The notes under the pieces: generated by a model
The model's input: the letters and a program-made list of their open reading frames with translations, nothing else
Database searches by the model: none
What the model was told of the DNA's origin: nothing
In this document: one piece after another, positions 10,491-29,036 of the stretch
Layout: each line of letters begins with the position of its first letter
How positions within the stretch are numbered: position 1 is the stretch's first letter
From: Minisyncoccota bacterium
Lineage (GTDB): Bacteria; Patescibacteriota; Minisyncoccia; Phycocordibacterales; XYD1-FULL-46-19
Assembly: GCA_018063065.1 (NCBI GenBank)
Contig: JAGORB010000001.1
Coordinates: 1 to 54,725, forward strand
DNA: 54,725 nucleotides
Reading direction: 5' to 3'
Made by a program: the position numbers and the translations under genes

Positions 10491-11936
10491 TTATTTCTTC
10501 CTTTCTTCTTTTAATAAATAATTTTTGATGTGTTTGCGGGCCATGGAGGTGCGGACAATAGAGAGCCACTTGGGGCTCGGGTGAGTAGTCTTTTTAACTT
10601 CAATCTGGACTAAGTCATGACTTTTTAAAGCGGTGTCCATCGCCACAAATTTATTATTAACCGTGGCTCCGGCGGCGTGCTCGCCAATGTCAGAGTGAAT
10701 GGCGTAGGCAAAGTCGAGCGCCGTGGCGCCTTTGGGCAATTCAATAACGTCACCTTTGGGGGTGAAGGTAAAGATGCGATCTTGGAAGAAGTCATTTTTA
10801 AGATCGGCTAAGAATTGGCCTGACTCTTCAACCTGCTTCTGCCATTCAATGAGGTCTTGGAGCCAAGCCACCTTCTTGGTGGCCTTACCGCCATTCTTGG
10901 GCTTACCGGTCTCGTCGTACAAGAGGTGCGAGGCGAAGCCGTACTCGGCGGCCTCATGCATCTTCTTACTCCTAATCTGGATCTCAGCCATAGTGCCATC
11001 ACTTAAGAAGATGGCGGTGTGTATACTCTGATAACCATTCATCTTAGGATGAGCAATGTAATCCTTGAGGCGCCCTGGTACCGGCTTCCACAGCGAGTGG
11101 ATAATGCCTAAAGTTTGATAGCAATCGGGGAGCGTGGGCACAATTACCCGCAGAGCCGAGAGATCATAAATTTGACTCATGTCCATATGGTGGCGCTTGA
11201 GCTTGAGGTAGAGCGAGTACAAATATTTAATCCGGTAATCAATATGAGCGTCTTTAATATTCTGAATCGCCAACTCTTTAGACAGGGTGCGATAAATCTT
11301 CTCTAACTTCCGGAGAGATTCTTTACCTTTAGTCTTGCGCAATTTATTTACTTCTTTAAATTCTTCCGGATAAGCGTAGGGGAAGGCGGCATCTTCCAGC
11401 TGGCCCTTCAACTTCCAGATACCCAAGCGATTGGCTAAGGGAGCATAAATTTCTAAAGTCTCCACGGCAATACGCTCCTGCTTGTCGGGGCGGACATGTT
11501 CTAAGGTACGCACATTGTGCAAGCGGTCGGCTAATCTAATTAAGATAACCCGCAAGTCCTTGGCCATGGCTACAAATAATTTGCGCAGGCTCTCTACATG
11601 GCGCTCCAGACCCTGATACTTAAGCTTGCCGAGTTTGGTCACGCCATCTACCAAGAAGGCAATATTCTTACCAAACTTCTTCTCAATCTCCTCAATTATC
11701 ACTGGCGTATCCTCGACCGTGTCGTGGAGGAGAGCGGCGGCAATAGTCTCGGCGTCGGCCCGGAGCTCGATGAGGATTTGGGCCACGGCAATGGGGTGGA
11801 TAATATAAGCCTCGCCGGAGAAGCGGGTCTGCCCCTCGTGAGCGCCCAAGGCAAAGTAAAAGGCGCGTTTAATAAGCTCTTTCTGCTCTTTATTTAGATA
11901 ATCGGCGGGGGCCAAAATCTCTTCCACAGAGGTCAT
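10491..11936 (-). CDS. relA: RelA/SpoT-homologue (p)ppGpp synthetase/hydrolase, short form (HD + synthetase + TGS, no ACT)
   Basis: 481 aa. HD motif HEGQ..YIIHP..LLHDTVEDT, synthetase region YQSIHTAI, and a C-terminal TGS-like segment FTPKGDVIELPKGATALDFAYAIHSDIG. Confidence 0.9.
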   Translation of the reverse strand: MTSVEEILAPADYLNKEQKELIKRAFYFALGAHEGQTRFSGEAYIIHPIAVAQILIELRADAETIAAALLHDTVEDTPVIIEEIEKKFGKNIAFLVDGVTKLGKLKYQGLERHVESLRKLFVAMAKDLRVILIRLADRLHNVRTLEHVRPDKQERIAVETLEIYAPLANRLGIWKLKGQLEDAAFPYAYPEEFKEVNKLRKTKGKESLRKLEKIYRTLSKELAIQNIKDAHIDYRIKYLYSLYLKLKRHHMDMSQIYDLSALRVIVPTLPDCYQTLGIIHSLWKPVPGRLKDYIAHPKMNGYQSIHTAIFLSDGTMAEIQIRSKKMHEAAEYGFASHLLYDETGKPKNGGKATKKVAWLQDLIEWQKQVEESGQFLADLKNDFFQDRIFTFTPKGDVIELPKGATALDFAYAIHSDIGEHAAGATVNNKFVAMDTALKSHDLVQIEVKKTTHPSPKWLSIVRTSMARKHIKNYLLKEERKK

Positions 11937-21428: not shown

Positions 21429-22817
21429 ATGAAAGATTTTTGGCACTATGCTTTTTGGGTGGGCTTAACGGCCGTTTTTGCGATCTCGCTTTTTAATCTT
21501 GTGCCGGTAGCGGCGCGCGTAGGTATGGACTTTATGACCGGCAACTGGGCGTCGCAATTGCATTATCAAGTGGCGACCGCAGCCGCCACTGTGAGCTCGC
21601 CCGTTTTAAGGAGTACTGTTAATGACCCAGTCTTTACGCCGCCAACGCGCGGTAAGGCTATCCGCGCGGACTTGGCGGCGATGAAGCTCTCCTTGTATGA
21701 AGATGGTAATAATATTGCCACCTACGATATTGTCGCTAAGGGCAAGCCCGGCAGCCCGTGGGAGACGCCAACCGGCGAGTATCACGTGTTACTGAAGAAA
21801 GAGAGTCACTTCTCTTCTTTAGGAGAAGTGTGGATGCCGTGGAGCTTACAATTCTTCGGCAACTTCTTTATCCATGGTCGGCCATATGATGAAACCGGTA
21901 AAGAATTACCCGATGGTTACTCAGGCGGTTGCATCCGCTTGGCTACCGCCGATGCCGAGATGGTTTATAACTTCGCCACTAGCGACACTTTAGTATCGGT
22001 ATATGGTGGCAAGAATGAAGGCGTGGGTACTAATAGTTATGAATTGTTGTCTCAAACTTTACCCAAGGTTAGTGCCGCCGCTTACGCGGTGGTTGATTTA
22101 GAAACAGGTGAAGTTATTTTAGAACATAATCTAGACCAAGTTTATCCTATCGCCTCTTTGTCTAAACTTTTAACTGCCATTGTATCTTTAGAAATTATTG
22201 ATCAATCTGATTTAGTAAATATTAGCAAGGTAGCTATTGATACTTACGGCACGCAAGGTAATTTAAGATTGGGCGAGAATTTGCCAGCCCAAGAATTGCT
22301 TTATCCATTATTATTAGAGTCCAGCAATGACGCGGCGGAGGCGATTGCCAGGCACTTTGGCCGGGCGGAATTTATTCGAGCCCTTAACAATAAAGCCTCG
22401 GCCATTGGCCTTACCGACACCCACTTTGATGATCCGAGTGGTCTCTCGCCCAAGAATGTCTCGAGCGCTCGCGACTTGGCCAAGCTCTCGCGTTATATTT
22501 ATCAATCCAAGCGTTATATCTTTGATTTAACACGACGGGGCGCTTACGATTATGCCAATCATCATTGGGTGAATAGTAATAAATTAGTGAAGCAAGAAAA
22601 TTACTTGGGCGGGAAGAATGGCTTTATTGATGAAGCCCGCCAGACCCAAATTGCCCTCTTTGAATTGCCTCTCGGCGAATTTAGTAAGCGGCCTGTCGCC
22701 CTGGTAGTCTTGCGCAGTGCCAATCGCGAAGCGGATATTAAAACTCTGGTGGAATTTATCGACACCCACACCGTCTTTAGCGAAACTCCCAAAAACCCCA
22801 CCTTCCAGTATTTATAG
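21429..22817 (+). CDS. fusion protein: L,D-transpeptidase (YkuD) domain + serine D-Ala-D-Ala carboxypeptidase (S11) domain
   Basis: 462 aa. N-terminal TM, YkuD motif HGRP..YSGGCIRL, then S11 motifs ASLSKLLT (SxxK), ESSND (SxN) and GGKNGF (KxG). Confidence 0.85.
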   Translation: MKDFWHYAFWVGLTAVFAISLFNLVPVAARVGMDFMTGNWASQLHYQVATAAATVSSPVLRSTVNDPVFTPPTRGKAIRADLAAMKLSLYEDGNNIATYDIVAKGKPGSPWETPTGEYHVLLKKESHFSSLGEVWMPWSLQFFGNFFIHGRPYDETGKELPDGYSGGCIRLATADAEMVYNFATSDTLVSVYGGKNEGVGTNSYELLSQTLPKVSAAAYAVVDLETGEVILEHNLDQVYPIASLSKLLTAIVSLEIIDQSDLVNISKVAIDTYGTQGNLRLGENLPAQELLYPLLLESSNDAAEAIARHFGRAEFIRALNNKASAIGLTDTHFDDPSGLSPKNVSSARDLAKLSRYIYQSKRYIFDLTRRGAYDYANHHWVNSNKLVKQENYLGGKNGFIDEARQTQIALFELPLGEFSKRPVALVVLRSANREADIKTLVEFIDTHTVFSETPKNPTFQYL

Positions 22818-22820
22818 AAA

Positions 22821-22852
22821 TAAAAATGGCGGAGATCATATAGATCTCCGCC
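22821..22852 (-). terminator. hairpin cassette copy (variant GGCGGAGATC..GATCTCCGCC)
   Basis: On the minus strand: GG + a 10-bp stem + ATTTTTATTT. It abuts the stop codon of the convergent gene at 22817. Confidence 0.65.
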
Positions 22853-22919
22853 CCACGGACCAGCGAACGATACCTGGGAACGGCGGACTGTACTTGGCAG
22901 TGCAGGAAATTAATACAAC
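22821..22919 (-). ncRNA. predicted small RNA unit U12 (~100 nt)
   Basis: The promoter is TTGACT (inside hairpin 22943-22970)-N17-TATATT, and the terminator is at 22821-22852. There is no ORF or RBS. The call rests on architecture only. Confidence 0.4.
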
Positions 22920-22935
22920 TATCTTAATATAACAA

Positions 22936-22970
22936 ATAAAATAGCGGGAGTCAAGTTAATGACTCCCGCT
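22936..22970 (-). terminator. hairpin cassette copy (identical 28-mer AGCGGGAGTCATTAACTTGACTCCCGCT), terminates the helicase gene
   Basis: On the minus strand: GG + an 11-bp stem + ATTTTATTT, 56 nt downstream of the helicase stop. Confidence 0.75.
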
Positions 22971-23026
22971 CCATGGCAGACCCCACTTAAGTTTACTGCG
23001 CTGCAGTTAACCGCTCTGGGGAACGA

Positions 23027-24817
23027 CTACTTCAACAACTTCAGTGTCTCCTCCAGACACTGTTCGAAAGAACTTTCACCTTGGTACGCTGGCTTCAGCC
23101 ATTCGGGCAGTGAAGGCCGTAGGAAACGGCGGAATTGTTGGGACATGAAGATGCATACCCCCACGTCCTTAGTGCTCCGGATGTTGCGACCTCGCACTTG
23201 CAAAGCCTCAATCATCACGCGCCAATTCCACAATCGCCAACGCATACTGCCGAAACGACGCTCTTCAAATACGGAACATGGATCATTGGGCGGCGGATAA
23301 CTGGGTCGAAGAACGAAGATGACTGGCGCGATTTGTTTGGGTAAATCGAGACCTTCACCATAATTGGCTAGAGTCCCGACTAACACATCGCCTTCACCAC
23401 CTTTGAAGCGTTGAGCGGCTTCTTTGGCTTTCACGCCTTTACCGTAGCTCAACGCCTCTACCCCTTCTTCCGTTGCCATCATGAGGAACTTGTCGCGCTC
23501 CTCATTGGACACCACCACCACGAGGGAGCGTATCCCTTCATCGGCAAAGCGTTTGCTGGCCCTCGCCATCTTGCGGATGGTTTGAGTTACATCACGCTTG
23601 TTGCGGTTGTTCACCGCCAGGTTGGGTGTATCGGTGGGTAAGAAAACGCGGGTTTTGAGATGAGAGAAGTCGGAATCCAAGCTGTAGCAAGGATTACTAA
23701 TTCCCGTCTCATGGGAAAAGATCTCTGGGTCGCCAATAGTGGCCGACATCGCCAAGGTCTTTTTGCCCAGTATCCGTTTGATCAATGGTGCCACATAGTA
23801 GCACTTGATAAACAAACGATACTTGACCCGGTCATTCTCGCCACGCTCCTTTACCCAATAGGCGTAGGTGTAATTAAGCGGACCGCGCTTTCCTGCTGGG
23901 AGAGAGAAGTCGAGCGAGCGAAAGTATCGGCCCAAATCTCGGACCAACACCTGCAGCCTCTTCAAGGTTTCCATCTCCACCTTTGGATCAATCAACCCCG
24001 CTTTAACTGCCTCACCAATACTCTTGGTGATCGCGGATTTGTCGATATCTTCCAATAAATCGCGGAGAGACTCGATTTCCCATTCTTCCAAGAGGGCTGG
24101 GGCGCTCGGCTTCTTGCGTTTGATGATCTTCACCATCTCGTCAAGGAAGCCTTTAAGTTGAGGAGCTTGAGGCGAACCTACTTGCTCCAACAATTCCGCC
24201 GCTCGCTCCAAGTGCCAGTCTGTGATCTCATACGAGAGACACTGTCTGACGACTCCAGCGAGCTGATGCGCTTCATCAATAACCAAGCCCGCCGGACGAT
24301 CGCCCCACTGCTTCCCAAAGAGTTGGGTGAAGAGATAGAAGGCCATTGTAGTCACAACCTTCTCGCCTGGTTGGCGGGCTTGATACTTCTGCAACAAATA
24401 CGGACACGGCGTAGCACCATACTCCTCGGTCTCGCCAGTCTCTTGGTCTACCCGATGGGGGCAGTCAGTCAACATGGCACAGGGAATGTCGTCGGCCTTC
24501 AAATTAGCATCCTCATAATACAAGCAAGGATGTTCATTGCGACCCAAAACTACTTTGAATTCTGGGTGCAGTTGACTGACTTGCTCCACTAGGACCTTCG
24601 ATCGAACGACATAAACATTAGGTCCTTGACCCGTGTCTGATAATTGCTCGAGGAAGGTGGCCCCAATGGCCGTCTTCCCAGAGCCGGTAGGGAGCTCTAA
24701 GGTTACGTTACCTCTCGTCTTCTCGATGATCTCGAGCGCTTCCTGCTGAGCCGGTTTAATAGACCGGTACTTCTGCGGGAAGTAGGGGATTAGCCCCTGA
24801 TGTTGCGTGTGTGGCAT
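23027..24817 (-). CDS. XPD/Rad3/DinG-family DNA helicase with Fe-S cluster cysteines
   Basis: 596 aa. Walker A LPTGSGKT and a DEAH box (VIDEAHQL). Four Cys lie between motifs I and II (HPC, IPC, TDC, TPC). The C-terminal motif VI-like segment is VRGRNIRSTKDVGVCIFMSQ. SD AAAGGAGG precedes the ATG. Confidence 0.85.
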   Translation of the reverse strand: MPHTQHQGLIPYFPQKYRSIKPAQQEALEIIEKTRGNVTLELPTGSGKTAIGATFLEQLSDTGQGPNVYVVRSKVLVEQVSQLHPEFKVVLGRNEHPCLYYEDANLKADDIPCAMLTDCPHRVDQETGETEEYGATPCPYLLQKYQARQPGEKVVTTMAFYLFTQLFGKQWGDRPAGLVIDEAHQLAGVVRQCLSYEITDWHLERAAELLEQVGSPQAPQLKGFLDEMVKIIKRKKPSAPALLEEWEIESLRDLLEDIDKSAITKSIGEAVKAGLIDPKVEMETLKRLQVLVRDLGRYFRSLDFSLPAGKRGPLNYTYAYWVKERGENDRVKYRLFIKCYYVAPLIKRILGKKTLAMSATIGDPEIFSHETGISNPCYSLDSDFSHLKTRVFLPTDTPNLAVNNRNKRDVTQTIRKMARASKRFADEGIRSLVVVVSNEERDKFLMMATEEGVEALSYGKGVKAKEAAQRFKGGEGDVLVGTLANYGEGLDLPKQIAPVIFVLRPSYPPPNDPCSVFEERRFGSMRWRLWNWRVMIEALQVRGRNIRSTKDVGVCIFMSQQFRRFLRPSLPEWLKPAYQGESSFEQCLEETLKLLK

Positions 24818-24873
24818 TTAAGCCTCCTTTTGTTTGCGTACCCTGGTTGTCAAAGCCAATTAAATTACTAGCA

Positions 24874-24905
24874 TAAAAAATAGCACTCGTCAACTGACGA
24901 GTGCT
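24874..24905 (-). terminator. hairpin cassette copy (variant AGCACTCGTC..GACGAGTGCT)
   Basis: On the minus strand: GG + a 10-bp stem + ATTTTTTAT. Its 3' arm carries TTGACG, 17 nt from TAGTAA, which is a putative helicase promoter. Confidence 0.65.
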
Positions 24906-24972
24906 CCTCGGAACGGGTGGGTCCACTACAGAACGCCTTACAGCGCTAGAGTATAGGGCACCTCTCTAAGTG
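24874..24972 (-). ncRNA. predicted small RNA unit U9 (~100 nt)
   Basis: The promoter is TTGACT(25002-25007)-N17-TATAAT(24979-24984), and the terminator is at 24874-24905. There is no ORF. It shares a ~25-nt similar block (including CGTTCTGTAG) with unit U2. Confidence 0.45.
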
Positions 24973-24988
24973 TTTAAGATTATAATTA

Positions 24989-25020
24989 TAAAAATGCCGG
25001 AAGTCAAGATGACTTCCGGC
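24989..25020 (-). terminator. hairpin cassette copy (25-mer GCCGGAAGTCATCTTGACTTCCGGC), terminates the small basic protein gene
   Basis: On the minus strand: GG + an 11-bp stem + ATTTTTAT. It is identical to the copy at 25531. Confidence 0.75.
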
Positions 25021-25086
25021 CCGAGGGTTGCCTTACTTCAGCCAACGAGACGTATGCTCGGGAAGCGAAGCAGAAAAATGTTCAAC

Positions 25087-25260
25087 TTACGAATATTTAT
25101 TTACATGACTGCCACGATTCTTTCGCCGTTGCTTTTTATTCTTCCCTTTACCTTTGCGATTGACTCGCTTGCCACCAGTTTTTCCCTGAAAGTGGTTTTG
25201 GTTAACGGGGTGGCCACTTTGACCATGCTTCTTCATTCCCATCCCGCCTCTGTTGGTCAT
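25087..25260 (-). CDS. very basic Gly/Lys/Arg/Asn-rich small protein (57 aa)
   Basis: The product is MTNRGGMGMKKHGQSGHPVNQNHFQGKTGGKRVNRKGKGKNKKQRRKNRGSHVNKYS. SD AAAGGA lies 7 nt upstream. The gene has its own promoter (TGcTATACT) and its own cassette terminator. The track ORF start (25371) is rejected in favour of the SD-linked ATG. Confidence 0.55.
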   Translation of the reverse strand: MTNRGGMGMKKHGQSGHPVNQNHFQGKTGGKRVNRKGKGKNKKQRRKNRGSHVNKYS

Positions 25261-25281
25261 TGCGATTCCTTTCTTAAATTT

Positions 25282-25305
25282 GGTGGGGACCAAATGGTCC
25301 CCACC
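25282..25305 (-). promoter_or_regulatory. perfect 10-bp hairpin in the 5' UTR of the small basic protein gene
   Basis: GGTGGGGACC-attt-GGTCCCCACC, about 20 nt upstream of the SD, with no T-run. Confidence 0.4.
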
Positions 25306-25392
25306 CCTTGCCCCACAATTCAAATCTTCACGGCAGTTCAGGAAGCCCCACTGCGGCCTGCTTCTCTGCACTATCTAATTTTTAGTATAGCA

Positions 25393-25427
25393 TAAAAATA
25401 GCGGGAGTCAAGTTAATGACTCCCGCT
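25393..25427 (-). terminator. hairpin cassette copy (identical 28-mer)
   Basis: On the minus strand: GG + AGCGGGAGTCATTAACTTGACTCCCGCT + ATTTTTAT. TTGACT-N16-TATACT is embedded in it. Confidence 0.75.
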
Positions 25428-25503
25428 CCGCGGTGAACCCGTCCCTAGAATACTTGGCCGAACTGAAGTTTGCTGGGGTCAGCATGGCAAGAGCCGGCCG
25501 ATC
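25393..25503 (-). ncRNA. predicted small RNA unit U7 (~110 nt)
   Basis: A TATAAA/TATATA -10 lies at 25510-25520 and the terminator is at 25393-25427. Only a 25-codon ORF is present and it has no SD. Confidence 0.4.
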
Positions 25504-25522
25504 CGATATTTATATAATTTCA

Positions 25523-25555
25523 TAAAAAATGCCGGAAGTCAAGATGACTTCCGGC
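25523..25555 (-). terminator. hairpin cassette copy (25-mer GCCGGAAGTCATCTTGACTTCCGGC)
   Basis: On the minus strand: GG + stem + ATTTTTTAT. Confidence 0.75.
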
Positions 25556-25614
25556 CCTAGGACGGGAATAGACCACCTGGGTGGACAGGACACTACTCAA
25601 CCTTGTTGATCCTC
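25523..25614 (-). ncRNA. predicted small RNA unit U6 (~90 nt)
   Basis: The -10 is TGTAAAT (25621-25627) and the terminator is at 25523-25555. There is no ORF. Confidence 0.4.
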
Positions 25615-25627
25615 CATGAGATTTACA

Positions 25628-25658
25628 TAAAAAATGGCCGATGTCAATGACATCGGCC
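25628..25658 (-). terminator. hairpin cassette copy (variant GGCCGATGTCATTGACATCGGCC)
   Basis: On the minus strand: GG + stem + ATTTTTTAT. The 3' arm reads TTGACA. Confidence 0.7.
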
Positions 25659-25714
25659 CCGTGCTTGACTATAGGCTACCTGTCTACACTGCGCCCCACG
25701 ATGGGTAAGACGGC
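25628..25714 (-). ncRNA. predicted small RNA unit U5 (~85 nt)
   Basis: The promoter is TTGACT(25744-25749)-N17-TATATT(25721-25726) and the terminator is at 25628-25658. Confidence 0.45.
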
Positions 25715-25730
25715 TGTTTTAATATAACAA

Positions 25731-25765
25731 TAAAAATAGCGGGAGTCAAGTTAATGACTCCCGCT
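25731..25765 (-). terminator. hairpin cassette copy (identical 28-mer)
   Basis: On the minus strand: GG + AGCGGGAGTCATTAACTTGACTCCCGCT + ATTTTTAT. Confidence 0.75.
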
Positions 25766-25952
25766 CCTTGCTACGCCCTACCAGAGGGGGCTGGACAACG
25801 CTGGGGTGAACCGCAGAGAGCTCTGCCTAGTTATACCCAGAAGATACTTTTATTAATGGCAGCCCTATACTTCAGGGCTGCCCCGCGGTGTGCTCTGACT
25901 GGCGGAGCCACACCCAACCGAAGACTGGAGTAGCCTTCGATGTAGGAATCTA
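25731..25952 (-). ncRNA. predicted small RNA unit U4 (~220 nt; possibly two ~110-nt units split by the internal hairpin at 25858-25882)
   Basis: The promoter is TTGACA(25981-25986)-N16-TAATAT(25959-25964). An internal perfect 9-bp hairpin (GGCAGCCCT-gaagtat-AGGGCTGCC) is followed by ATTAATAAAAG. The terminal cassette is at 25731-25765. Confidence 0.4.
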
Positions 25953-25987
25953 TTTGTTATATTACATATTTTAATAATTTTGTCAAA

Positions 25988-26018
25988 TAAAATAGCGGAG
26001 GTCAAAGTGACCTCCGCT
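25988..26018 (-). terminator. hairpin cassette copy (variant AGCGGAGGTCACTTTGACCTCCGCT)
   Basis: On the minus strand: GG + an 11-bp stem + ATTTTATTTGACA. Confidence 0.75.
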
Positions 26019-26084
26019 CCGTGCTGGTCCAAGCTGTGCCGGGCGCCAGGATACTTCGGCCCGCGTGGCAGAGCTAAGATAATA
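25988..26084 (-). ncRNA. predicted small RNA unit U3 (~95 nt)
   Basis: The promoter is TTGACA(26114-26119)-N17-TATATT(26091-26096) and the terminator is at 25988-26018. Confidence 0.45.
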
Positions 26085-26120
26085 ATTAATAATATATCAA
26101 ATAAACGAATTATTGTCAAA

Positions 26121-26155
26121 TAAAAATAGCGGGAGTCAAGTTAATGACTCCCGCT
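26121..26155 (-). terminator. hairpin cassette copy (identical 28-mer)
   Basis: On the minus strand: GG + AGCGGGAGTCATTAACTTGACTCCCGCT + ATTTTTATTTGACA. Confidence 0.75.
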
Positions 26156-26320
26156 CCTGGGTGAAGAAAGCCTGACTGCACGGTAGGCCGGTGGACCTAT
26201 CTACAGAACGGCTGGATAGATTAATAAATGGTGGCCTAGTAATAGGCCACCCCGAGGACTAGTGTACTTACAGAGTAGAGTACGACTCATTACTGTGCCC
26301 CGCAAAGCGAGTCTACATCT
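26121..26320 (-). ncRNA. predicted small RNA unit U2 (~200 nt; possibly two ~100-nt units split by the internal hairpin at 26230-26251)
   Basis: The promoter is TTGACA(26350-26355)-N17-TATCTT(26327-26332). An internal perfect 9-bp hairpin (GGTGGCCTA-ttac-TAGGCCACC) is followed by ATTTATTAAT. The terminal cassette is at 26121-26155. Confidence 0.4.
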
Positions 26321-26356
26321 ACATTTAAGATACCAATAATTTTAAATTTTGTCAAA

Positions 26357-26391
26357 TAAAAATAGCGGGAGTCAAGTTAATGACTCCCGCT
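26357..26391 (-). terminator. hairpin cassette copy (identical 28-mer), terminates the 203-aa protein gene
   Basis: On the minus strand: 76-nt 3' UTR, then GG + AGCGGGAGTCATTAACTTGACTCCCGCT + ATTTTTATTTGACA. Confidence 0.75.
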
Positions 26392-26467
26392 CCGTACACT
26401 ACCGTGCCCATCTACACCCCACCCGAGTGGACTATAGCCAGCGGCACCCGGCAGAAATACTTTTACA

Positions 26468-27076
26468 TTACGCCGCTTCTTTCACGACGTTTTCCATGAT
26501 TTCCCAGCTCTCAATCGTGAAGCGGCCGAAGGGTCCCTTGCACGACGGACGGAAATCACCGAGACCGATGTTACCGGCGCACTTCACCAACTGCTTGATG
26601 GTGTCTGGAGACACTCCATTGCCGTCGATCGTGAGGGTGAACTCGAATCCCCACGACATAAACTTGGGCCGGACGATGCAGACCGCTGTGCCGTCCTTGA
26701 GACGTCCGCGTCGCTTGTCCACGATCCAGCCGTCGTTTTCGGGCACCAGATTTGTAAACGGCAAAAAGGTCTCTTCGACTGACAACAAGGAGTACATCGT
26801 GGTTGTTTTGGCAGTTGAGATCTGATCCTTGCCGTGCTTCACCTTGCGACCGGCCTCGGCCATGCAGGCCAAGAGATTTTCCACCGGGATCCCGATTTTA
26901 CCGGATTCGGTGCACAGTTTTCTCTGGGAGATTTCTTCGACGGGCCGGTCTTTCATGATCGGGGCGCGATTGCCGGTTCGGAGTTCGTCGAGGATGTCTT
27001 CGGTCATCGGGTTCATGAGGTAAGGGGATACCCCCTTAATCTTGACCTTTACGTTCTGGATCTTGCTGACGGACAT
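26468..27076 (-). CDS. hypothetical protein (203 aa) with RAMP-like glycine-rich C-terminal motif
   Basis: The ATG at 27076 follows AAGGGAGGG with a 7-nt spacer; the track start (TTG at 27121) has no SD. The N-terminus reads KVKIKGVSPYLMN, the middle has GIPVENLLACMAEAGRKVK, and the C-terminus has AGNIGLGDFRPSCKGPFGRFTI. I could not assign a family with certainty. Confidence 0.75.
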   Translation of the reverse strand: MSVSKIQNVKVKIKGVSPYLMNPMTEDILDELRTGNRAPIMKDRPVEEISQRKLCTESGKIGIPVENLLACMAEAGRKVKHGKDQISTAKTTTMYSLLSVEETFLPFTNLVPENDGWIVDKRRGRLKDGTAVCIVRPKFMSWGFEFTLTIDGNGVSPDTIKQLVKCAGNIGLGDFRPSCKGPFGRFTIESWEIMENVVKEAA

Positions 27077-27192
27077 TCTATGTCCCTCCCTTGCAATGTA
27101 CAGGTCTCGTTGTGAGACCAACCGGATATATTCCTAGCATGGGCTTTGGATTGTGTCAAGTATGTGTTGTTATGTTATGATAGATCCTATCT

Positions 27193-28167
27193 ATGTGTTT
27201 TTGGCATAACTTAGAGAAACCGATTATCTGTCAGGCGCCGTTATATGATGTAACGGACGCCGCTTTTAGGCAGATTATTGCTAAGTATTCTAAGCCGGCT
27301 GGCCCGGACATCTTCTTCACTGAGTTTGTGTCGGCCGATGGACTGATGCACCCCAAGGGCCGCGAGAAGTTATTGCGAGAGCTTTATTATACCGAGGGCG
27401 AGCGGCCGATTGTGGCGCAACTCTTTACTAGTCGGCCCGAGAAGATGCGCGAGGCGGCTAAACTCTGTAAGGAGCTTGGCTTTGATGGCGTGGATATTAA
27501 TATGGGTTGTCCTGACGCCACCATAGAGAAACAGGGTTGCGGCGCCAATTTAATTAAACACCCGGAGCTGGCTAAAGAGTTGATTGAAGCGGCTAAAGAG
27601 TCTGGGCTTAAGGTCTCGGTTAAAACACGCTTGGGTTATAACCACATTGATTTAGACTGGATTAAATTTATTTTAGGTTGCAAGCCGGTGGCGCTCACGG
27701 TGCACTTGCGCACGCGGAAGGAGATGAGTAAGGTCCCGGCCCATTGGGAGGTAATGCCTGAGATTATGAAGTTGGCCGAGGGGAGCGGAGTAATCATTTT
27801 AGGCAATGGTGATGTGAAGACGCCAGTGGAGGCCAGAGAAAAATGCATTCAATATAAATGCGACGGGGTGATGATTGGGCGGGGGATCTTCGGCAACCCG
27901 TGGTTGTATGCGGAAACCGTTCCAACTAAAGAAGAGAGATTAAAAGTCTTGCTCGAGCATACCAAACTCTTCGCTGATATGTACCTGCCGGGGGAGACGA
28001 ATACTAAATTATTTAACGGGCACACTAAAAGCTTCGCCGTGATGAAGAAGCATTTTAAAGCTTATATCGATAACTTCCCCGGCGCCGCCGAATTACGCTC
28101 TAAACTGATGGAAGCGAATAGTGTAGAGGAGGTAGAAGAAATAATCGATAGTTATATTAGAGATTAA
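27193..28167 (+). CDS. dus: tRNA-dihydrouridine synthase
   Basis: 324 aa TIM-barrel flavoenzyme. Motifs include APLYDVTDAAFR, VAQLF, GVDINMGCP, HLRT and GNGD. Confidence 0.9.
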   Translation: MCFWHNLEKPIICQAPLYDVTDAAFRQIIAKYSKPAGPDIFFTEFVSADGLMHPKGREKLLRELYYTEGERPIVAQLFTSRPEKMREAAKLCKELGFDGVDINMGCPDATIEKQGCGANLIKHPELAKELIEAAKESGLKVSVKTRLGYNHIDLDWIKFILGCKPVALTVHLRTRKEMSKVPAHWEVMPEIMKLAEGSGVIILGNGDVKTPVEAREKCIQYKCDGVMIGRGIFGNPWLYAETVPTKEERLKVLLEHTKLFADMYLPGETNTKLFNGHTKSFAVMKKHFKAYIDNFPGAAELRSKLMEANSVEEVEEIIDSYIRD

Positions 28168-28205: not shown

Positions 28206-29036
28206 TTATTTCTTTGGCCAACCAATAGAACGCTCTGGCCCACGCCGTTTTGGCGGCGGAGCTGAAAGAAAAGCCTTTAAAAAAGTTATTTTCTTACGTT
28301 TTGCGTACAGGTGTAAATAGACTGAATCAGTAGGACATATTGGTTCCCCGTTAGGGCCTCTATTCCGACAACATTTACACATTGCTTGACACCAAGGCAT
28401 TGAACACTTTTCTAATTCGCCGGGTGCTGAAATTTGACCCTGAATTGCTTGAATAGCCCTCTCTTTCCAATTACATGGAGAACATTTAAAGCGATTATTC
28501 ATTCCATGAAGGTAAAGGCGACACCCTCCACAAACATAGACTCCCTGGGCGACCATAAACTTTGCCTTATTTAATACCTTGTTTTTACACCAAGGTAGCC
28601 CACAATCGACCTCACTGTATTTTGGTGGCTTATTTTTATGCCAACCTTTCTCGGGTAATTGAGCGAAGGCTTTTTCTAAGGGTATGTTTCTTCTCTTTGC
28701 CCATTCCCAAGTAGCCTCATAGCAATTACGGCAAACATGGTGCAGACCTATATGTCTCCTGTGTTGACCCTTGTTTCCTTCCTCAAACTTTACATCACAA
28801 CCTTTTCTGGCACATTTAGTCTTGATAGCGGGGAGGGTTTTCTTGGGTGGCGGTAGGGAGGAAAAAATTTCTCCCATTTCTTTACCATCAAGTTTAGCCT
28901 GCTCCCAAACATACTGATAACAAGCTCGGCAAAGTTGTTTGCTGTTAATCTGCCTAGCAGACTGACCAGTGGAAGCAGCAGTTGGCCGATGACACCACGG
29001 TGCGGCACAGATCATATTTCTGATTTCAACCTTCAT
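28206..29036 (-). CDS. Cys-rich protein with four tandem zinc-ribbon-like modules
   Basis: 276 aa. There are four repeats of C-x4-C-x(17-21)-C-x2-C: CAAPWC..CRAC, CARKGC..CRNC, CGLPWC..CGGC, and a degenerate CSMPWC..C. Several are followed by a W/Y-rich helix and an LP..PPK tail. Confidence 0.7.
   Translation of the reverse strand: MKVEIRNMICAAPWCHRPTAASTGQSARQINSKQLCRACYQYVWEQAKLDGKEMGEIFSSLPPPKKTLPAIKTKCARKGCDVKFEEGNKGQHRRHIGLHHVCRNCYEATWEWAKRRNIPLEKAFAQLPEKGWHKNKPPKYSEVDCGLPWCKNKVLNKAKFMVAQGVYVCGGCRLYLHGMNNRFKCSPCNWKERAIQAIQGQISAPGELEKCSMPWCQAMCKCCRNRGPNGEPICPTDSVYLHLYAKRKKITFLKAFLSAPPPKRRGPERSIGWPKK

What the first reader, a model, noticed from the sequence alone, without database searches (positions are those of the whole stretch)
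22821..27190. Accessory locus built from an array of ~8-10 miniature promoter-RNA-terminator units interleaved with a 203-aa protein, a 57-aa basic protein and an Fe-S XPD/DinG-like helicase
Everything between the housekeeping genes ending at 22817 and starting at 27193 lies on the minus strand.

The cassette: I count 11 copies of one conserved cassette. On the minus strand it reads GG, then a 9-11 bp GC-rich stem whose apex is GTCA..TTGAC, then ATTTT(T)(T)AT.
- Five copies are the identical 28-mer AGCGGGAGTCATTAACTTGACTCCCGCT (plus-strand positions 22943, 25400, 25738, 26128, 26364).
- Two copies are the identical 25-mer GCCGGAAGTCATCTTGACTTCCGGC (24996, 25531).
- Four copies are variants (22828, 24882, 25636, 25994).
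- Two weaker hairpins (25858, 26230) subdivide the two longest intervals.

The intervals: they measure 100-135 bp, or about twice that. The DNA between cassettes is unique in sequence, GC-richer than the cassette flanks, and has no SD-linked ORF.

The protein genes: three cassettes terminate protein genes (26468-27076, 25087-25260, 23027-24817).

The locus therefore appears to encode many separately transcribed 60-220-nt RNAs with a constant 3' module and variable bodies, next to a helicase and two small proteins. Formally this resembles an array of individually promoted guide, decoy or antisense RNAs. It is not a CRISPR array, a tRNA array, or any sRNA family I recognise.
Basis: partly seen in the sequence, partly recalled or inferred. 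Interest (0 to 1): 0.85.

Follow-up and report, generated by a model that had tools for sequence, protein, structure and literature searches.

The report
VIPR guide-RNA array with XPD-like helicase
This 4.4-kb island in a Patescibacteria genome is a VIPR system, a CRISPR-like RNA-guided DNA-recognition system first described in 2026 preprints, made of a Cas7-like protein, 14 separately promoted guide RNAs built from 5-base repeats, and an iron-sulfur helicase.

Summary
The locus (22821-27190, minus strand) is a VIPR (Viral Interference Programmable Repeat) system.

- **Vipr protein.** The 202-aa protein is a full-length homologue of the solved SUSP1 Vipr protein (profile E=4.7e-11). It models as a Cas7-type RAMP.
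- **Guide tracts.** Each "variable body" is a tract of 11-13 pentanucleotide repeats (Y-N-N-N-S) abutting a GC hairpin with a T-run. I count 14 tracts, 11 terminator cassettes and about 11 sigma70-like promoters.
- **Helicase.** The 596-aa protein is an intact XPD/Rad3/DinG-type helicase with four conserved Fe-S cysteines. It sits beside vipr in 28 of 34 Patescibacteria loci, and in none of 32 other bacterial or 80 viral Vipr loci.
- **A decoded guide.** Read by the published two-bases-read, one-skipped rule, guide v6 matches all 26 read bases antisense to the motif FTLSGGTGDADLY of PPC domains. The skipped base falls on the codon wobble position.
- **Turnover.** Tails are 95-100% identical between relatives whose proteins are 77% identical, while the guides differ completely.

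The kind is already described, so this is a new member. It has a variant repeat, hairpin-terminator tails and a possible triplet-mirroring fourth base. Natural targets and expression remain untested.

The parts
26468..27076 (-). vipr gene: 202-aa Cas7-like RAMP protein that should coat the guide RNAs
   Evidence: A profile of 65 homologues hits PDB 36pp 'SUSP1 Vipr protein' at E=4.7e-11 over the full length. The AF2 model has pLDDT 91. Foldseek's top PDB hits are Csm3, type VII Cas7 and Cas7-11. The G-loop GDFRP and thumb residue R136 are conserved. No Pfam, NCBIfam or PADLOC hit; phrog_4652 at E=1e-17.
27131..27159 (-). probable vipr promoter (TTGACA, N17, TGcTAGGAA)
   Evidence: Read from the sequence. 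The same arrangement is conserved upstream of vipr in L001. Prediction only.
26364..26456 (-). vrRNA v1: pentamer tract 26392-26456 plus 28-nt tail hairpin 26364-26391, in the vipr 3'UTR
   Evidence: Register shown. Terminator. Identical in six other assemblies that carry the identical Vipr.
26230..26316 (-). vrRNA v2: tract 26252-26316 (1-nt register slip) plus weak hairpin 26230-26251. Promoter at 26327-26355. No T-run, so probably co-transcribed with v3
26128..26220 (-). vrRNA v3: tract 26156-26220 plus 28-nt tail 26128-26155
   Evidence: score 19/20
25994..26083 (-). vrRNA v4: tract 26019-26083 plus tail 25994-26018. Promoter TTGACA N17 TATATT at 26091-26119
   Evidence: The fold shows only the terminal hairpin as a shared structure.
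25858..25947 (-). vrRNA v5: tract 25883-25947 plus weak hairpin 25858-25882. Promoter at 25959-25986. Co-transcribed with v6
25738..25830 (-). vrRNA v6: 13 repeats (25766-25830) plus 28-nt tail 25738-25765. The only guide with a decoded target motif
   Evidence: The pattern built from positions 2-3 of 11 repeats, with one free base between pairs, found 11 metagenome contigs against about 0.1 expected. All are antisense to FTLSGGTGDAD[LM]Y with the free base at the codon wobble. In five contigs all 13 repeats match, 26 of 26 bases. The motif lies in a PF04151 PPC domain.
25636..25713 (-). vrRNA v7: tract plus tail 25636-25658. The promoter -35 TTGACT lies inside the preceding hairpin (25721-25749)
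25531..25612 (-). vrRNA v8: tract plus 25-nt tail 25531-25555. Promoter at 25620-25647 with its -35 in the hairpin
25400..25492 (-). vrRNA v9: tract 25428-25492 plus 28-nt tail 25400-25427. Promoter at 25514-25542
25282..25370 (-). vrRNA v10: tract 25306-25370 plus weak hairpin 25282-25305, in the 5' leader of the small ORF. Promoter at 25384-25411.
25087..25260 (-). 57-aa Lys/Arg/Gly-rich protein with a Shine-Dalgarno site; an occasional second accessory gene
   Evidence: tblastn finds it in L002 (63% over 52 aa, E=2e-13, between vipr and the helicase) and in L004 (51%, E=1e-7, next to vipr). No match in any family library.
24996..25085 (-). vrRNA v11: tract 25021-25085 plus 25-nt tail 24996-25020, in the 3'UTR of the small ORF
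24882..24970 (-). vrRNA v12: tract 24906-24970 plus tail 24882-24905. Promoter TTGACT N17 TATAAT at 24979-25007
23027..24817 (-). 596-aa XPD/Rad3/DinG-family Fe-S helicase, the accessory (Vap-type) effector
   Evidence: Pfam Helicase_C_2, ResIII and DEAD. PADLOC typeIV_DinG at E=1.4e-35. The best PDB matches for the profile are XPD, FANCJ and CHL1, then DinG. C98, C113, C119, C138, Walker A, DEAH and motif VI are conserved in 24-26 of 26 homologues. It is adjacent to vipr in 28 of 34 Patescibacteria loci.
22943..23026 (-). vrRNA v13: tract plus 28-nt tail 22943-22970, in the helicase 3'UTR
   Evidence: A vrRNA in the same position follows the helicase in L001.
22828..22917 (-). vrRNA v14: tract 22853-22917 plus tail 22828-22852. 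Promoter at 22926-22954 with its -35 in the hairpin

Best explanation
The locus is a chromosomal VIPR system of a Patescibacteria-restricted, helicase-linked clade. The steps below are marked as shown or inferred.

**Transcription (predicted from sequence).** About eleven sigma70-type promoters drive short minus-strand transcripts. Each ends at a GC-rich hairpin plus U-run. That hairpin is at once the intrinsic terminator, the constant 3' 'tail' of the guide and, in most units, the -35 element of the next promoter.

**Guide structure (shown).** Upstream of each hairpin lie 11-13 pentamers of the form Y-N-N-N-S.

**Assembly and recognition (inferred from the SUSP1 cryo-EM structures).** One Vipr protomer binds each pentamer. 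It buries the scaffold bases and presents positions 2-3. Those bases pair with double-stranded DNA while every third target base is skipped.

**Targets (shown for one guide).** Because the skipped base falls on the codon wobble position, a guide specifies a short peptide motif rather than one exact DNA sequence. For v6 this motif is the antisense of FTLSGGTGDADLY.

**Effector (inferred).** The XPD-like Fe-S helicase is the effector partner. By analogy with DinG in type IV-A CRISPR it is probably recruited to the R-loop. It would then translocate 5'-3' to extend silencing, or to block replication or transcription of the invader. No nuclease is encoded in the locus.

**Processing (inferred).** Three guides sit in mRNA 3'UTRs, and three more end at weak hairpins (v2, v5, and v10 in the small-ORF leader). 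These are presumably trimmed out after Vipr binds them.
For: - Vipr homology. RAMP fold.
- Residues that hold the scaffold bases in SUSP1 (R138, D177, W178, R179; 10.64898/2026.04.26.720927) align with R136, D174, F175 and R176 here.
- Pentamer tracts in the window. In 132 units from relatives the periodicity persists to repeats -11 and -12, which were not used for selection.
- The tracts abut hairpin terminators and cluster at vipr and the helicase in most Patescibacteria loci: 20 units in L020, 15 in L016, 13 in L012, 12 in L001.
- Helicase linkage: 28 of 34 Patescibacteria loci, 0 of 32 other genomes, 0 of 80 viral loci.
- v6 decodes under the NNx rule to a PPC-domain motif with the skip at the wobble position.
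- No self-target in the window.
- Between the window and L001, tails are 95-100% identical, the genes are 72-76% identical at the nucleotide level, and the guide tracts do not align.
- The published definition of VIPR fits: Vipr, 9-16 pentamer repeats, an invariable 3' tail and a vap gene. Helicase-type vap genes and YNNNG repeats are both mentioned (10.64898/2026.04.26.720920).
Against: - There is no expression data. Promoters and terminators are consensus predictions.
- Only one of 14 guides gave a target. Its hits are motif-level matches in contigs of 65-73% GC, not an identified natural target.
- Exact scans for v1, v4, v7, v10 and v12 found nothing convincing.
- The repeat consensus (Y-N-N-N-S, position 4 free) differs from the characterised YNNGG, so the reading rule may not be identical.
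- The tail is a plain hairpin, not the SUSP1 pseudoknot.
- The helicase's role is pure inference.
- I could not see the preprint's figures or tables, so the assignment to its helicase type (presumably type IV) is unverified.
Confidence: 0.92

Rival explanations
1. The system is a VIPR, but it acts on RNA. The guides pair with mRNAs of the target genes and the locus works as an antisense or translation-silencing system.
For: Guide v6 is antisense to the coding strand of its motif, so it would pair with the mRNA. In the decoded frames, stops are depleted in the antisense frame only. The SUSP1 complex can form a guide-RNA duplex with single-stranded RNA (10.64898/2026.04.26.720927).
Against: The partner is an XPD/Rad3-type DNA helicase with an intact Fe-S domain. 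With SUSP1, RNA targets gave mostly incomplete filaments, and silencing worked on either DNA strand. Only one guide has a known orientation.
Confidence: 0.1
2. The locus is a degenerate or minimal type IV CRISPR-Cas system: a Cas7 (Csf2)-like protein plus DinG whose array has been remodelled.
For: PADLOC's typeIV_DinG model matches the helicase over its full length at E=1.4e-35. The 202-aa protein has a Cas7 fold. Type IV-A acts without a nuclease and needs DinG (PMC11519345, PMC10450177).
Against: There are no matches to Csf1, Csf3, Cas6 or Csf5, and no Cas match for the 202-aa protein. There is no repeat-spacer array. The guides are built from 5-nt repeats. The protein matches Vipr by sequence. 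The helicase keeps four Fe-S cysteines, whereas CasDinG has a vestigial FeS domain. Its closest solved relatives are XPD, FANCJ and CHL1. NCBIfam gives no Csf4 hit.
Confidence: 0.03
3. The cassettes are generic REP-like terminator or promoter elements, the intervening transcripts are ordinary regulatory sRNAs or noise, and they are only coincidentally next to a helicase.
For: The hairpins are canonical intrinsic terminators. There is no Rfam family and no conserved body structure.
Against: The cassette is confined to the locus within 54.7 kb. The bodies carry a 5-nt code found in every unit and in relatives. The arrangement of vipr, array and helicase recurs in unrelated genomic neighbourhoods. 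One body spells 13 consecutive codons of a conserved domain motif.
Confidence: 0.02

Closest known systems
VIPR systems, characterised type II (Escherichia phage SUSP1, Pseudomonas fulva prophage); bioRxiv 10.64898/2026.04.26.720920 and 10.64898/2026.04.26.720927
   Same: A homologous ~200-aa Vipr RAMP. Guides of about 100 nt made of 9-16 pentanucleotide repeats followed by a constant 3' tail. Several guides per locus, upstream and downstream of the genes. One accessory gene. No cas genes or CRISPR array. A guide that decodes by the two-read, one-skipped rule with the skip at the codon wobble.
   Different: - It is chromosomal in Patescibacteria rather than phage-borne.
- The repeat is (T>C)-N-N-N-(G>C), with position 4 free, instead of C-N-N-G-G.
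- The residue aligned with SUSP1 H17, which reads the first G, is Asn here.
- The tail is a plain terminator hairpin, not a pseudoknot.
- Every guide or guide pair has its own promoter.
- The accessory protein is an Fe-S helicase, not a small DNA-binding protein.
- The array is larger (14 guides).
[quoted passage not shown]
   Same: Vipr plus a helicase accessory gene. The Methods mention an alternative YNNNG repeat.
   Different: I could not see the figures or tables, so I cannot say whether this Patescibacteria clade is the preprint's type IV. The readable text does not mention Patescibacteria, hairpin-terminator tails, per-guide promoters, the Fe-S cluster or the small basic protein.
Type IV-A CRISPR-Cas (Csf complex plus CasDinG)
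   Same: A Cas7-fold backbone protein on a guide RNA, working with an XPD/DinG-family 5'-3' helicase. No nuclease. Interference by silencing (PMC10450177, PMC11519345).
   Different: No Csf1, Csf3 or Cas6. No repeat-spacer array. A non-contiguous pentamer guide. The helicase retains the four Fe-S cysteines and is closer to XPD than to any DinG in the PDB.
Cas7 backbone subunits of class 1 effectors (Csm3, type VII Cas7, Cas7-11)
   Same: The best structural matches of the model: Foldseek E=7e-7, TM about 0.5-0.6. An RRM core, G-loop and thumb.
   Different: Sequence identity is 11-18%. The protein acts alone rather than in a multi-protein complex. The period is 5 nt instead of 6 nt.
XPD/Rad3/FANCJ/DinG Fe-S helicases
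   Same: SF2 motifs, a four-cysteine cluster between motifs Ia and II, and the Helicase_C_2 domain.
   Different: It is far below every NCBIfam equivalog cut-off. It is short (596 aa). It is genetically tied to vipr and a guide array rather than to DNA repair genes.

Membership tests
VIPR system | Vipr protein: a stand-alone RAMP homologue of about 20 kDa | tested here: met
   The profile of 65 homologues matches solved SUSP1 Vipr (36pp) at E=4.7e-11 over residues 2-187 of the profile and 2-191 of the chain. The single sequence gives E=9e-6.
VIPR system | RAMP fold with an RRM core, glycine-rich loop and thumb, and conserved RNA-contact residues | tested here: met
   The AF2 model has pLDDT 91. 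The top Foldseek hits are all Cas7-type RAMPs. The G-loop G171-L-G-D-F-R-P177 and R136 are invariant or nearly so. They align with SUSP1 D177, W178, R179 and R138.
VIPR system | vrRNAs made of 9-16 tandem pentanucleotide repeats (YNNGG or a related consensus) | tested here: met
   There are 14 tracts of 11-13 repeats. Position 1 is Y in 87%, position 5 is G or C in 94%, and positions 2-3 are uniform. The signal is confined to the locus. Clade-wide the consensus is Y-N-N-N-S. This is a related consensus, not canonical YNNGG.
VIPR system | A constant 3' tail after the repeat tract | tested here: met
   Every tract abuts a GC hairpin. Five are identical 28-mers and two are identical 25-mers, and the tails are 95-100% identical to those of L001. 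The structure is a simple hairpin with a U-run, unlike the SUSP1 pseudoknot.
VIPR system | A minimal locus: vipr plus one accessory (vap) gene, with no cas genes or CRISPR array | tested here: met
   The locus holds only vipr, the helicase and a 57-aa ORF between housekeeping genes. PADLOC finds no Cas protein other than the DinG-type match. Rfam gives no hit in the locus.
VIPR system | Non-contiguous recognition: positions 2-3 of each repeat read the target with one base skipped, usually the codon wobble | tested here: met
   Met for one of 14 guides. The v6 NNx pattern gave 11 metagenome hits against about 0.1 expected, all in one frame antisense to FTLSGGTGDAD[LM]Y with variable wobble bases. 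Five contigs match 26 of 26 bases. This is a motif-level match; the natural target was not identified. The other guides tested gave no target.
VIPR system | vrRNAs are expressed and co-purify with Vipr, and the complex binds or silences DNA | not testable with these tools
   Only promoter and terminator predictions are available.
VIPR system | Assignment to one of the preprint's seven types | not testable with these tools
   The figures and supplementary tables are not held. The text implies that a helicase type exists.
Type IV-A CRISPR-Cas | Csf1, Csf2, Csf3 and Cas6/Csf5 proteins | tested here: not met
   PADLOC finds no family for the 202-aa or the 57-aa protein. No further ORFs lie in the locus.
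Type IV-A CRISPR-Cas | A CRISPR array of direct repeats separated by contiguous spacers | tested here: not met
   The units are promoter, pentamer tract and terminator, 100-135 bp apart. Guide information is interleaved with scaffold bases.
Type IV-A CRISPR-Cas | CasDinG-type helicase (vestigial FeS domain) | tested here: not met
   Four cysteines are conserved in 24-26 of 26 homologues. The profile's best PDB matches are XPD, FANCJ and CHL1, with no CasDinG entry listed. There is no NCBIfam Csf4 hit. The PADLOC typeIV_DinG model does match at E=1.4e-35, so a family-level relationship exists.
XPD/Rad3/DinG Fe-S helicase family | SF2 motifs (Walker A, DEAH, motif VI) and the Helicase_C_2 domain | tested here: met
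   G45-x-G47-K48-T49, D181-E182-A-H184 and Q540-x-R542-G543-R544-x-x-R547 are conserved. PF13307 matches at E=1.3e-11.
XPD/Rad3/DinG Fe-S helicase family | A four-cysteine 4Fe-4S domain inserted in the first RecA domain | tested here: met
   C98, C113, C119 and C138 lie between Walker A and DEAH and are conserved. Cluster binding itself was not tested.
REP-like or generic terminator repeat | Copies dispersed behind unrelated genes across the genome | tested here: not met
   Within 54.7 kb the family occurs only in the locus, and the other terminators are unrelated in sequence. In relatives the units cluster at vipr and the helicase. The rest of the genome was not available.

The most novel reading that the evidence does not exclude
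In this Patescibacteria-only, helicase-linked clade the fourth base of each pentamer may be an image of the target's 'skipped' wobble base. The clade would then either read full triplets (a 3-of-5 code with no skip) or make its guides by a templated process that copies target triplets into a scaffold. Together with the complete guide turnover between close relatives behind near-identical tails, that would imply an unknown guide-generating mechanism in bacteria otherwise described as nearly devoid of CRISPR.

Support:
- Across 132 guide tracts, position 4 of repeat i-1 carries information about positions 2-3 of repeat i (z=4.5, P about 0.001). This is as strong as for the physically adjacent pair. 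Other offsets give nothing.
- The antisense frame decoded with position 4 as the wobble is depleted of stop codons (P=0.005).
- Two guides from distant genomes, with unrelated tails, decode to VYLDTVGTILA and VYMDTIGTIVA.
Probability: 0.3. Interest if true: 0.8.

Novelty: new member of a known kind. Interest (0 to 1): 0.6.

Why it matters
**Where the kind stands.** VIPR is a newly reported class of RNA-guided DNA recognition with a non-contiguous code, proposed to be older than CRISPR. In the library I could search it is described only in two 2026 preprints.

**What this locus adds.** It shows what the helicase-linked branch looks like in detail.
- It is a compact 4.4-kb chromosomal island in a Patescibacteria genome.
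- Each guide is its own transcription unit.
- One hairpin serves as terminator, guide tail and next promoter.
- The partner is an intact Fe-S XPD-type helicase. This parallels Cas7 plus DinG in type IV-A CRISPR.

**How widespread it is.** The clade is widespread in Patescibacteria: 366 clusters at 50% identity score E<=1e-30 against the profile. From my own knowledge, unchecked here, this group has been described as nearly lacking CRISPR-Cas. If so, this may be one of its main sequence-specific defences.

**Testable leads.**
- A guide that spells a conserved protein motif.
- A repeat consensus with a free fourth base that seems to track the target's wobble base.
- Repeat-versus-guide evolution that resembles CRISPR repeats and spacers.

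**A practical point.** Short-read assemblies break at the repeated tails, so such arrays are under-represented in metagenome data.

Tried and rejected
- **Known RNA families.** Rfam at gathering thresholds and ARAGORN found only three tRNAs, far from the locus. The bodies have no shared secondary structure beyond the terminal hairpin.
- **Family libraries.** Pfam, NCBIfam and PADLOC gave nothing for the 202-aa and 57-aa proteins.
- **Type IV CRISPR membership.** Rejected (see the membership test).
- **Exact NNx scans of IMG/VR.**
  - v1 and v4, 10 repeats: 0 hits.
  - v7, v10 and v12, 8-repeat cores: 6, 20 and 27 hits. This is about the chance rate for 16 specified bases, and none extends into the remaining repeats.
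  - v6, 8-repeat core: 19 hits, best 22 of 26 bases in a tail-fibre-like ORF of L072. Not significant on its own.
- **A shared guide.** A 9-repeat string shared by L001 and L015 gave one AT-rich viral hit that does not extend, so it is probably chance.
- **Local scan under seven rules.** I scanned 132 guides against about 1 Mb of the fetched loci (two strands, 2.1 Mb searched) under seven skip rules. There was no signal above shuffled guides apart from the guides' own genes.
- **Self-targets and PPC genes.** No self-target in the window; the best is 17 of 24. No PPC-domain gene in the window or in the Patescibacteria loci. No other guide in the fetched loci carries the GDADL motif.
- **Contiguous decode.** BLASTN of the contiguous N2N3N4 decodes against GenBank phages gave no match.
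- **Other guides against the v6 contigs.** No other window guide maps to the contigs that v6 hit.

Full report
**1.

The minus strand between the PBP/YkuD gene (ends 22817) and the Dus gene (starts 27193) carries three ORFs and a family of hairpins.
- The 28-mer AGCGGGAGTCAAGTTAATGACTCCCGCT occurs five times exactly, with none expected.
- A 25-mer occurs twice, and four variants complete 11 cassettes.
- Each cassette is a 10-11-bp GC-rich hairpin followed by ATTTTT. The terminator scan picks up all 11.
- A scan of the whole window finds this hairpin family nowhere else. The window's other terminators are unrelated in sequence.
- Seven sigma70-like promoters with 10-11 of 12 consensus matches lie on the minus strand directly after cassettes. 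In most of them the -35 TTGAC(T) is the descending arm of the hairpin.

A third lies at 25282-25305, upstream of the small ORF.

**2. What the bodies are.**

Printed in 5-nt register ending at each hairpin, every body is a run of pentamers.
- Over 13 units of 12 repeats, position 1 is a pyrimidine in 87% and position 5 is G (61%) or C (33%). Positions 2-3 are uniform, and position 4 is only weakly purine-biased.
- A hairpin-independent scan puts 42 of 44 minus-strand positions scoring at least 19/20, and 12 of 12 scoring 20/20, inside the 4.4-kb locus. Shuffles give 0.8 positions per strand at that level.
- With the tract upstream of the small ORF there are 14 tracts. Three lie in the 3'UTRs of the three protein genes. 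Three (v2, v5, v10) end in hairpins without a T-run, so they are probably co-transcribed with what follows.

**3. The 202-aa protein is a Vipr.**

It has no Pfam, NCBIfam or PADLOC match and only an unannotated PHROG.
- A search of 5.8 billion proteins found 168 relatives, those with names all from Patescibacteria. The window's own protein is annotated as hypothetical, from a Candidatus Pacebacteria MAG.
- A profile of 65 of these matches one solved structure over its full length at E=4.7e-11: 36pp, 'SUSP1 Vipr protein'.
- The AlphaFold model (pLDDT 91) resembles Cas7-type RAMPs: Csm3, type VII Cas7 and Cas7-11, with Foldseek E down to 7e-7.

Two 2026 preprints define VIPR systems (10.64898/2026.04.26.720920 and 10.64898/2026.04.26.720927).
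- The components are a ~20-kDa ancestral RAMP (Vipr), vrRNAs of 9-16 YNNGG repeats with an invariable 3' tail, and one accessory vap gene.
- The NN bases recognise double-stranded DNA while every third target base is skipped. That base is usually the codon wobble.
- The residues that hold the scaffold bases in SUSP1 (R138, D177, W178, R179) align here with invariant R136 and the G-loop D-F-R. H17, which reads the first G, aligns with Asn.

**4. The helicase.**

The 596-aa protein has Helicase_C_2, ResIII and DEAD domains.
- It matches PADLOC's typeIV_DinG model over its full length at E=1.4e-35.
- It is far below every NCBIfam DinG, YoaA or Rad3 cut-off, and there is no Csf4 hit.
- A profile of 24 orthologues matches archaeal and human XPD, FANCJ and CHL1 best (E about 1e-17 to 1e-18), then E. 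coli DinG.
- Walker A, DEAH, motif VI and four cysteines (C98, C113, C119, C138) between Walker A and DEAH are conserved in 24-26 of 26 orthologues.

It is therefore an intact Fe-S helicase of the XPD family. CasDinG of type IV-A CRISPR has a vestigial FeS domain (PMC10450177).

**5. The neighbourhood is conserved and specific to Patescibacteria.**

- Close and distant relatives have vipr, 1.3-2.3 kb of 'non-coding' DNA and the helicase. In L001 this is syntenic (between Dus and PBP). In L002 and L004 it sits between unrelated housekeeping genes.
- A scan of one genome per species returned 64 loci.
- The helicase is beside vipr in 28 of 34 non-redundant Patescibacteria-type loci. Each of the six exceptions lies within 4 kb of a contig end.
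- It is beside vipr in none of 32 loci from other phyla, where Vipr is at most 36% identical. It is beside vipr in none of 80 viral contigs, where the best Vipr identity is 40%.
- Units of hairpin-terminator plus pentamer tract cluster at these genes in most Patescibacteria loci, up to 20 in L020.
- Over 132 such units the periodicity persists to repeats -11 and -12, which were not used for selection, and fades by -13 and -14. The consensus is Y-N-N-N-S.
- Around viral and non-Patescibacteria vipr genes the tracts are equally enriched, but there position 1 is C in 84-87% and position 4 is G in 54-57%. In this clade the figures are T 66% and G 26%.

The repeat is thus a clade-specific variant. 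It matches the 'YNNNG' alternative mentioned in the preprint's Methods. The profile finds 6470 representatives at E<=1e-3 and 366 at E<=1e-30 among 1.84 billion cluster representatives.

**6. Tails and guides evolve differently.**

- Between the window and L001, vipr and the helicase align at 72-76% nucleotide identity and the tail/promoter modules at 95-100%. The guide tracts do not align at all.
- L021 and L022 have genes 89% identical but share only fragments of their arrays.
- Assemblies with the identical Vipr carry the identical v1. An 88%-identical relative has v1 with 3 of 18 read bases changed. A 74%-identical relative has an unrelated v1.

This is the repeat-versus-spacer pattern known from CRISPR arrays.

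**7. A decoded guide.**

There is no self-target in the window (best 17 of 24). Most exact scans were empty or at the chance rate.

The pattern built from positions 2-3 of 11 repeats of v6, with one free base between pairs, found 11 metagenome contigs against about 0.1 expected.
- All 11 hits are in the same frame, antisense to F-T-L-S-G-G-T-G-D-A-D-[L/M]-Y-V.
- The free base falls on the codon wobble and varies among contigs.
- In five contigs the two further repeats also match, giving 26 of 26 bases.
- In L177 the motif lies in the second of two PF04151 PPC domains.

The contigs are 65-73% GC. They are therefore homologues of the target motif rather than the natural target, which remains unknown. 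Even so, a 13-codon match to a conserved domain motif cannot be chance. It shows that the published reading rule applies to this clade.

**8. An unexplained signal at position 4.**

Position 4 is compositionally free but is not independent of the next repeat.
- Mutual information between position 4 of repeat i-1 and positions 2-3 of repeat i has z=4.5 (P about 0.001). This equals the physically adjacent pair (z=4.7).
- Offsets -3, -2, +1, +2 and +3, and the pair N3(i)/N2(i+1), show nothing.
- Reading N2N3N4 as contiguous triplets, the wobble-consistent antisense frame is depleted of stops: 104 of 132 stop-free against 91.9±4.3 (P=0.005, uncorrected for six frames).
- Two guides from distant loci (L001 and L015) have unrelated tails, and their scaffold bases agree only at chance. 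They share 16 of 18 read bases. My reading of the sequences takes this to 19 of 22 over 11 repeats. In the antisense frame they decode to VYLDTVGTILA and VYMDTIGTIVA, that is, conservative substitutions plus synonymous differences.

This suggests that position 4 mirrors the target's third base. Either it is read, or guides are templated from targets. The evidence is statistical and modest, and I flag it as a lead rather than a finding.

**9. Mechanism, and what is shown versus inferred.**

- Shown: homology and fold of Vipr; the pentamer code; the constant tails; the genetic linkage with an intact Fe-S helicase; one guide-to-motif decode with wobble skipping; fast guide turnover.
- Predicted from sequence: the promoters, the terminators and hence about 100-nt independent transcripts.
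- Inferred from the SUSP1 structures: one protomer per pentamer, R-loop formation starting at the tail end, and DNA as the target.
- Inferred by analogy with type IV-A: recruitment of the helicase to the R-loop, and nuclease-free interference.

The 57-aa basic protein is conserved beside vipr in two other lineages. It is a candidate extra accessory of unknown role.

**10. Novelty.**

The kind is known from the 2026 preprints, and a full-text search found no other description. The preprint states that helicase-type accessory genes and YNNNG repeats exist. Its readable text does not mention any of the following:
- Patescibacteria;
- hairpin-terminator tails;
- per-guide promoters;
- the Fe-S cluster;
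- the small protein.

Its figures and tables were not available. I therefore file this as a new member of a known kind, with variant features worth testing.

Noticed in passing
window 27103-27119 (-); L001 about 2727-2743: A small hairpin GGTCTC-ACAAC-GAGACC in the vipr 5'UTR is conserved between the window and the 77%-identical relative L001. It may be an autoregulatory or processing element.
   Followed up: no
L235-L244 (Logan contigs encoding the identical or close Vipr): Nine of these ten contigs stop 55-104 nt after the vipr stop codon, inside or just before the first repeated tail. Only L240 reads on, for 252 nt. Short-read assemblies break at the repeated tails, so these arrays are systematically under-assembled in metagenomes.
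   Followed up: partly
132 vrRNA tracts from the window and L001-L063: Position 4 of each pentamer co-varies with positions 2-3 of the next repeat (z=4.5). Decoding with position 4 as the third base gives an antisense frame depleted of stops. Position 4 may mirror the target's wobble base.
   Followed up: partly
L001 6480-6543 (+) and L015 about 11785-11853 (+): Two guides from distant genomes have unrelated tails and are offset by three repeats. They share 16 of 18 read bases over the nine repeats scored. I read 19 of 22 over 11 repeats from the sequences. They decode to VYLDTVGTILA and VYMDTIGTIVA. This looks like independent guides against homologous genes.
   Followed up: partly
window 25087-25260 (-); L002 10325-10474; L004 7630-7764: The 57-aa Lys/Arg/Gly-rich protein is conserved, with the motif GH.VN..HF.GK.GGK..RKGK..KQR..NRG[ST]H.N[KR][YF]. 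It lies within or beside the VIPR locus in three lineages only. No family match.
   Followed up: partly
window 28206-29036 (-): A 276-aa ORF with several cysteine-rich CxxC-type modules and no Pfam match lies just beyond the Dus gene.
   Followed up: no
L035-L069 (non-Patescibacteria genomes) and L097-L176 (viral contigs): More distant Vipr homologues (25-40% identity) are common in Magnetococcales, Planctomycetota, Victivallales, Desulfovibrionaceae and 167 IMG/VR contigs. They never have the helicase. Their flanking pentamer tracts have the canonical C-N-N-G-G bias.
   Followed up: partly
L001 6758-7279 (+): The syntenic relative carries an extra 173-aa ORF with no Pfam hit between its last vrRNA and the PBP gene. 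The window has no counterpart.
   Followed up: no
L072 10464-12758 (+), IMG/VR contig: A 764-aa tail-fibre-like viral ORF contains FTLSGGTGNSEV and matches guide v6 at 22 of 26 read bases. This is the best viral near-match, but it is not significant after multiple testing.
   Followed up: partly
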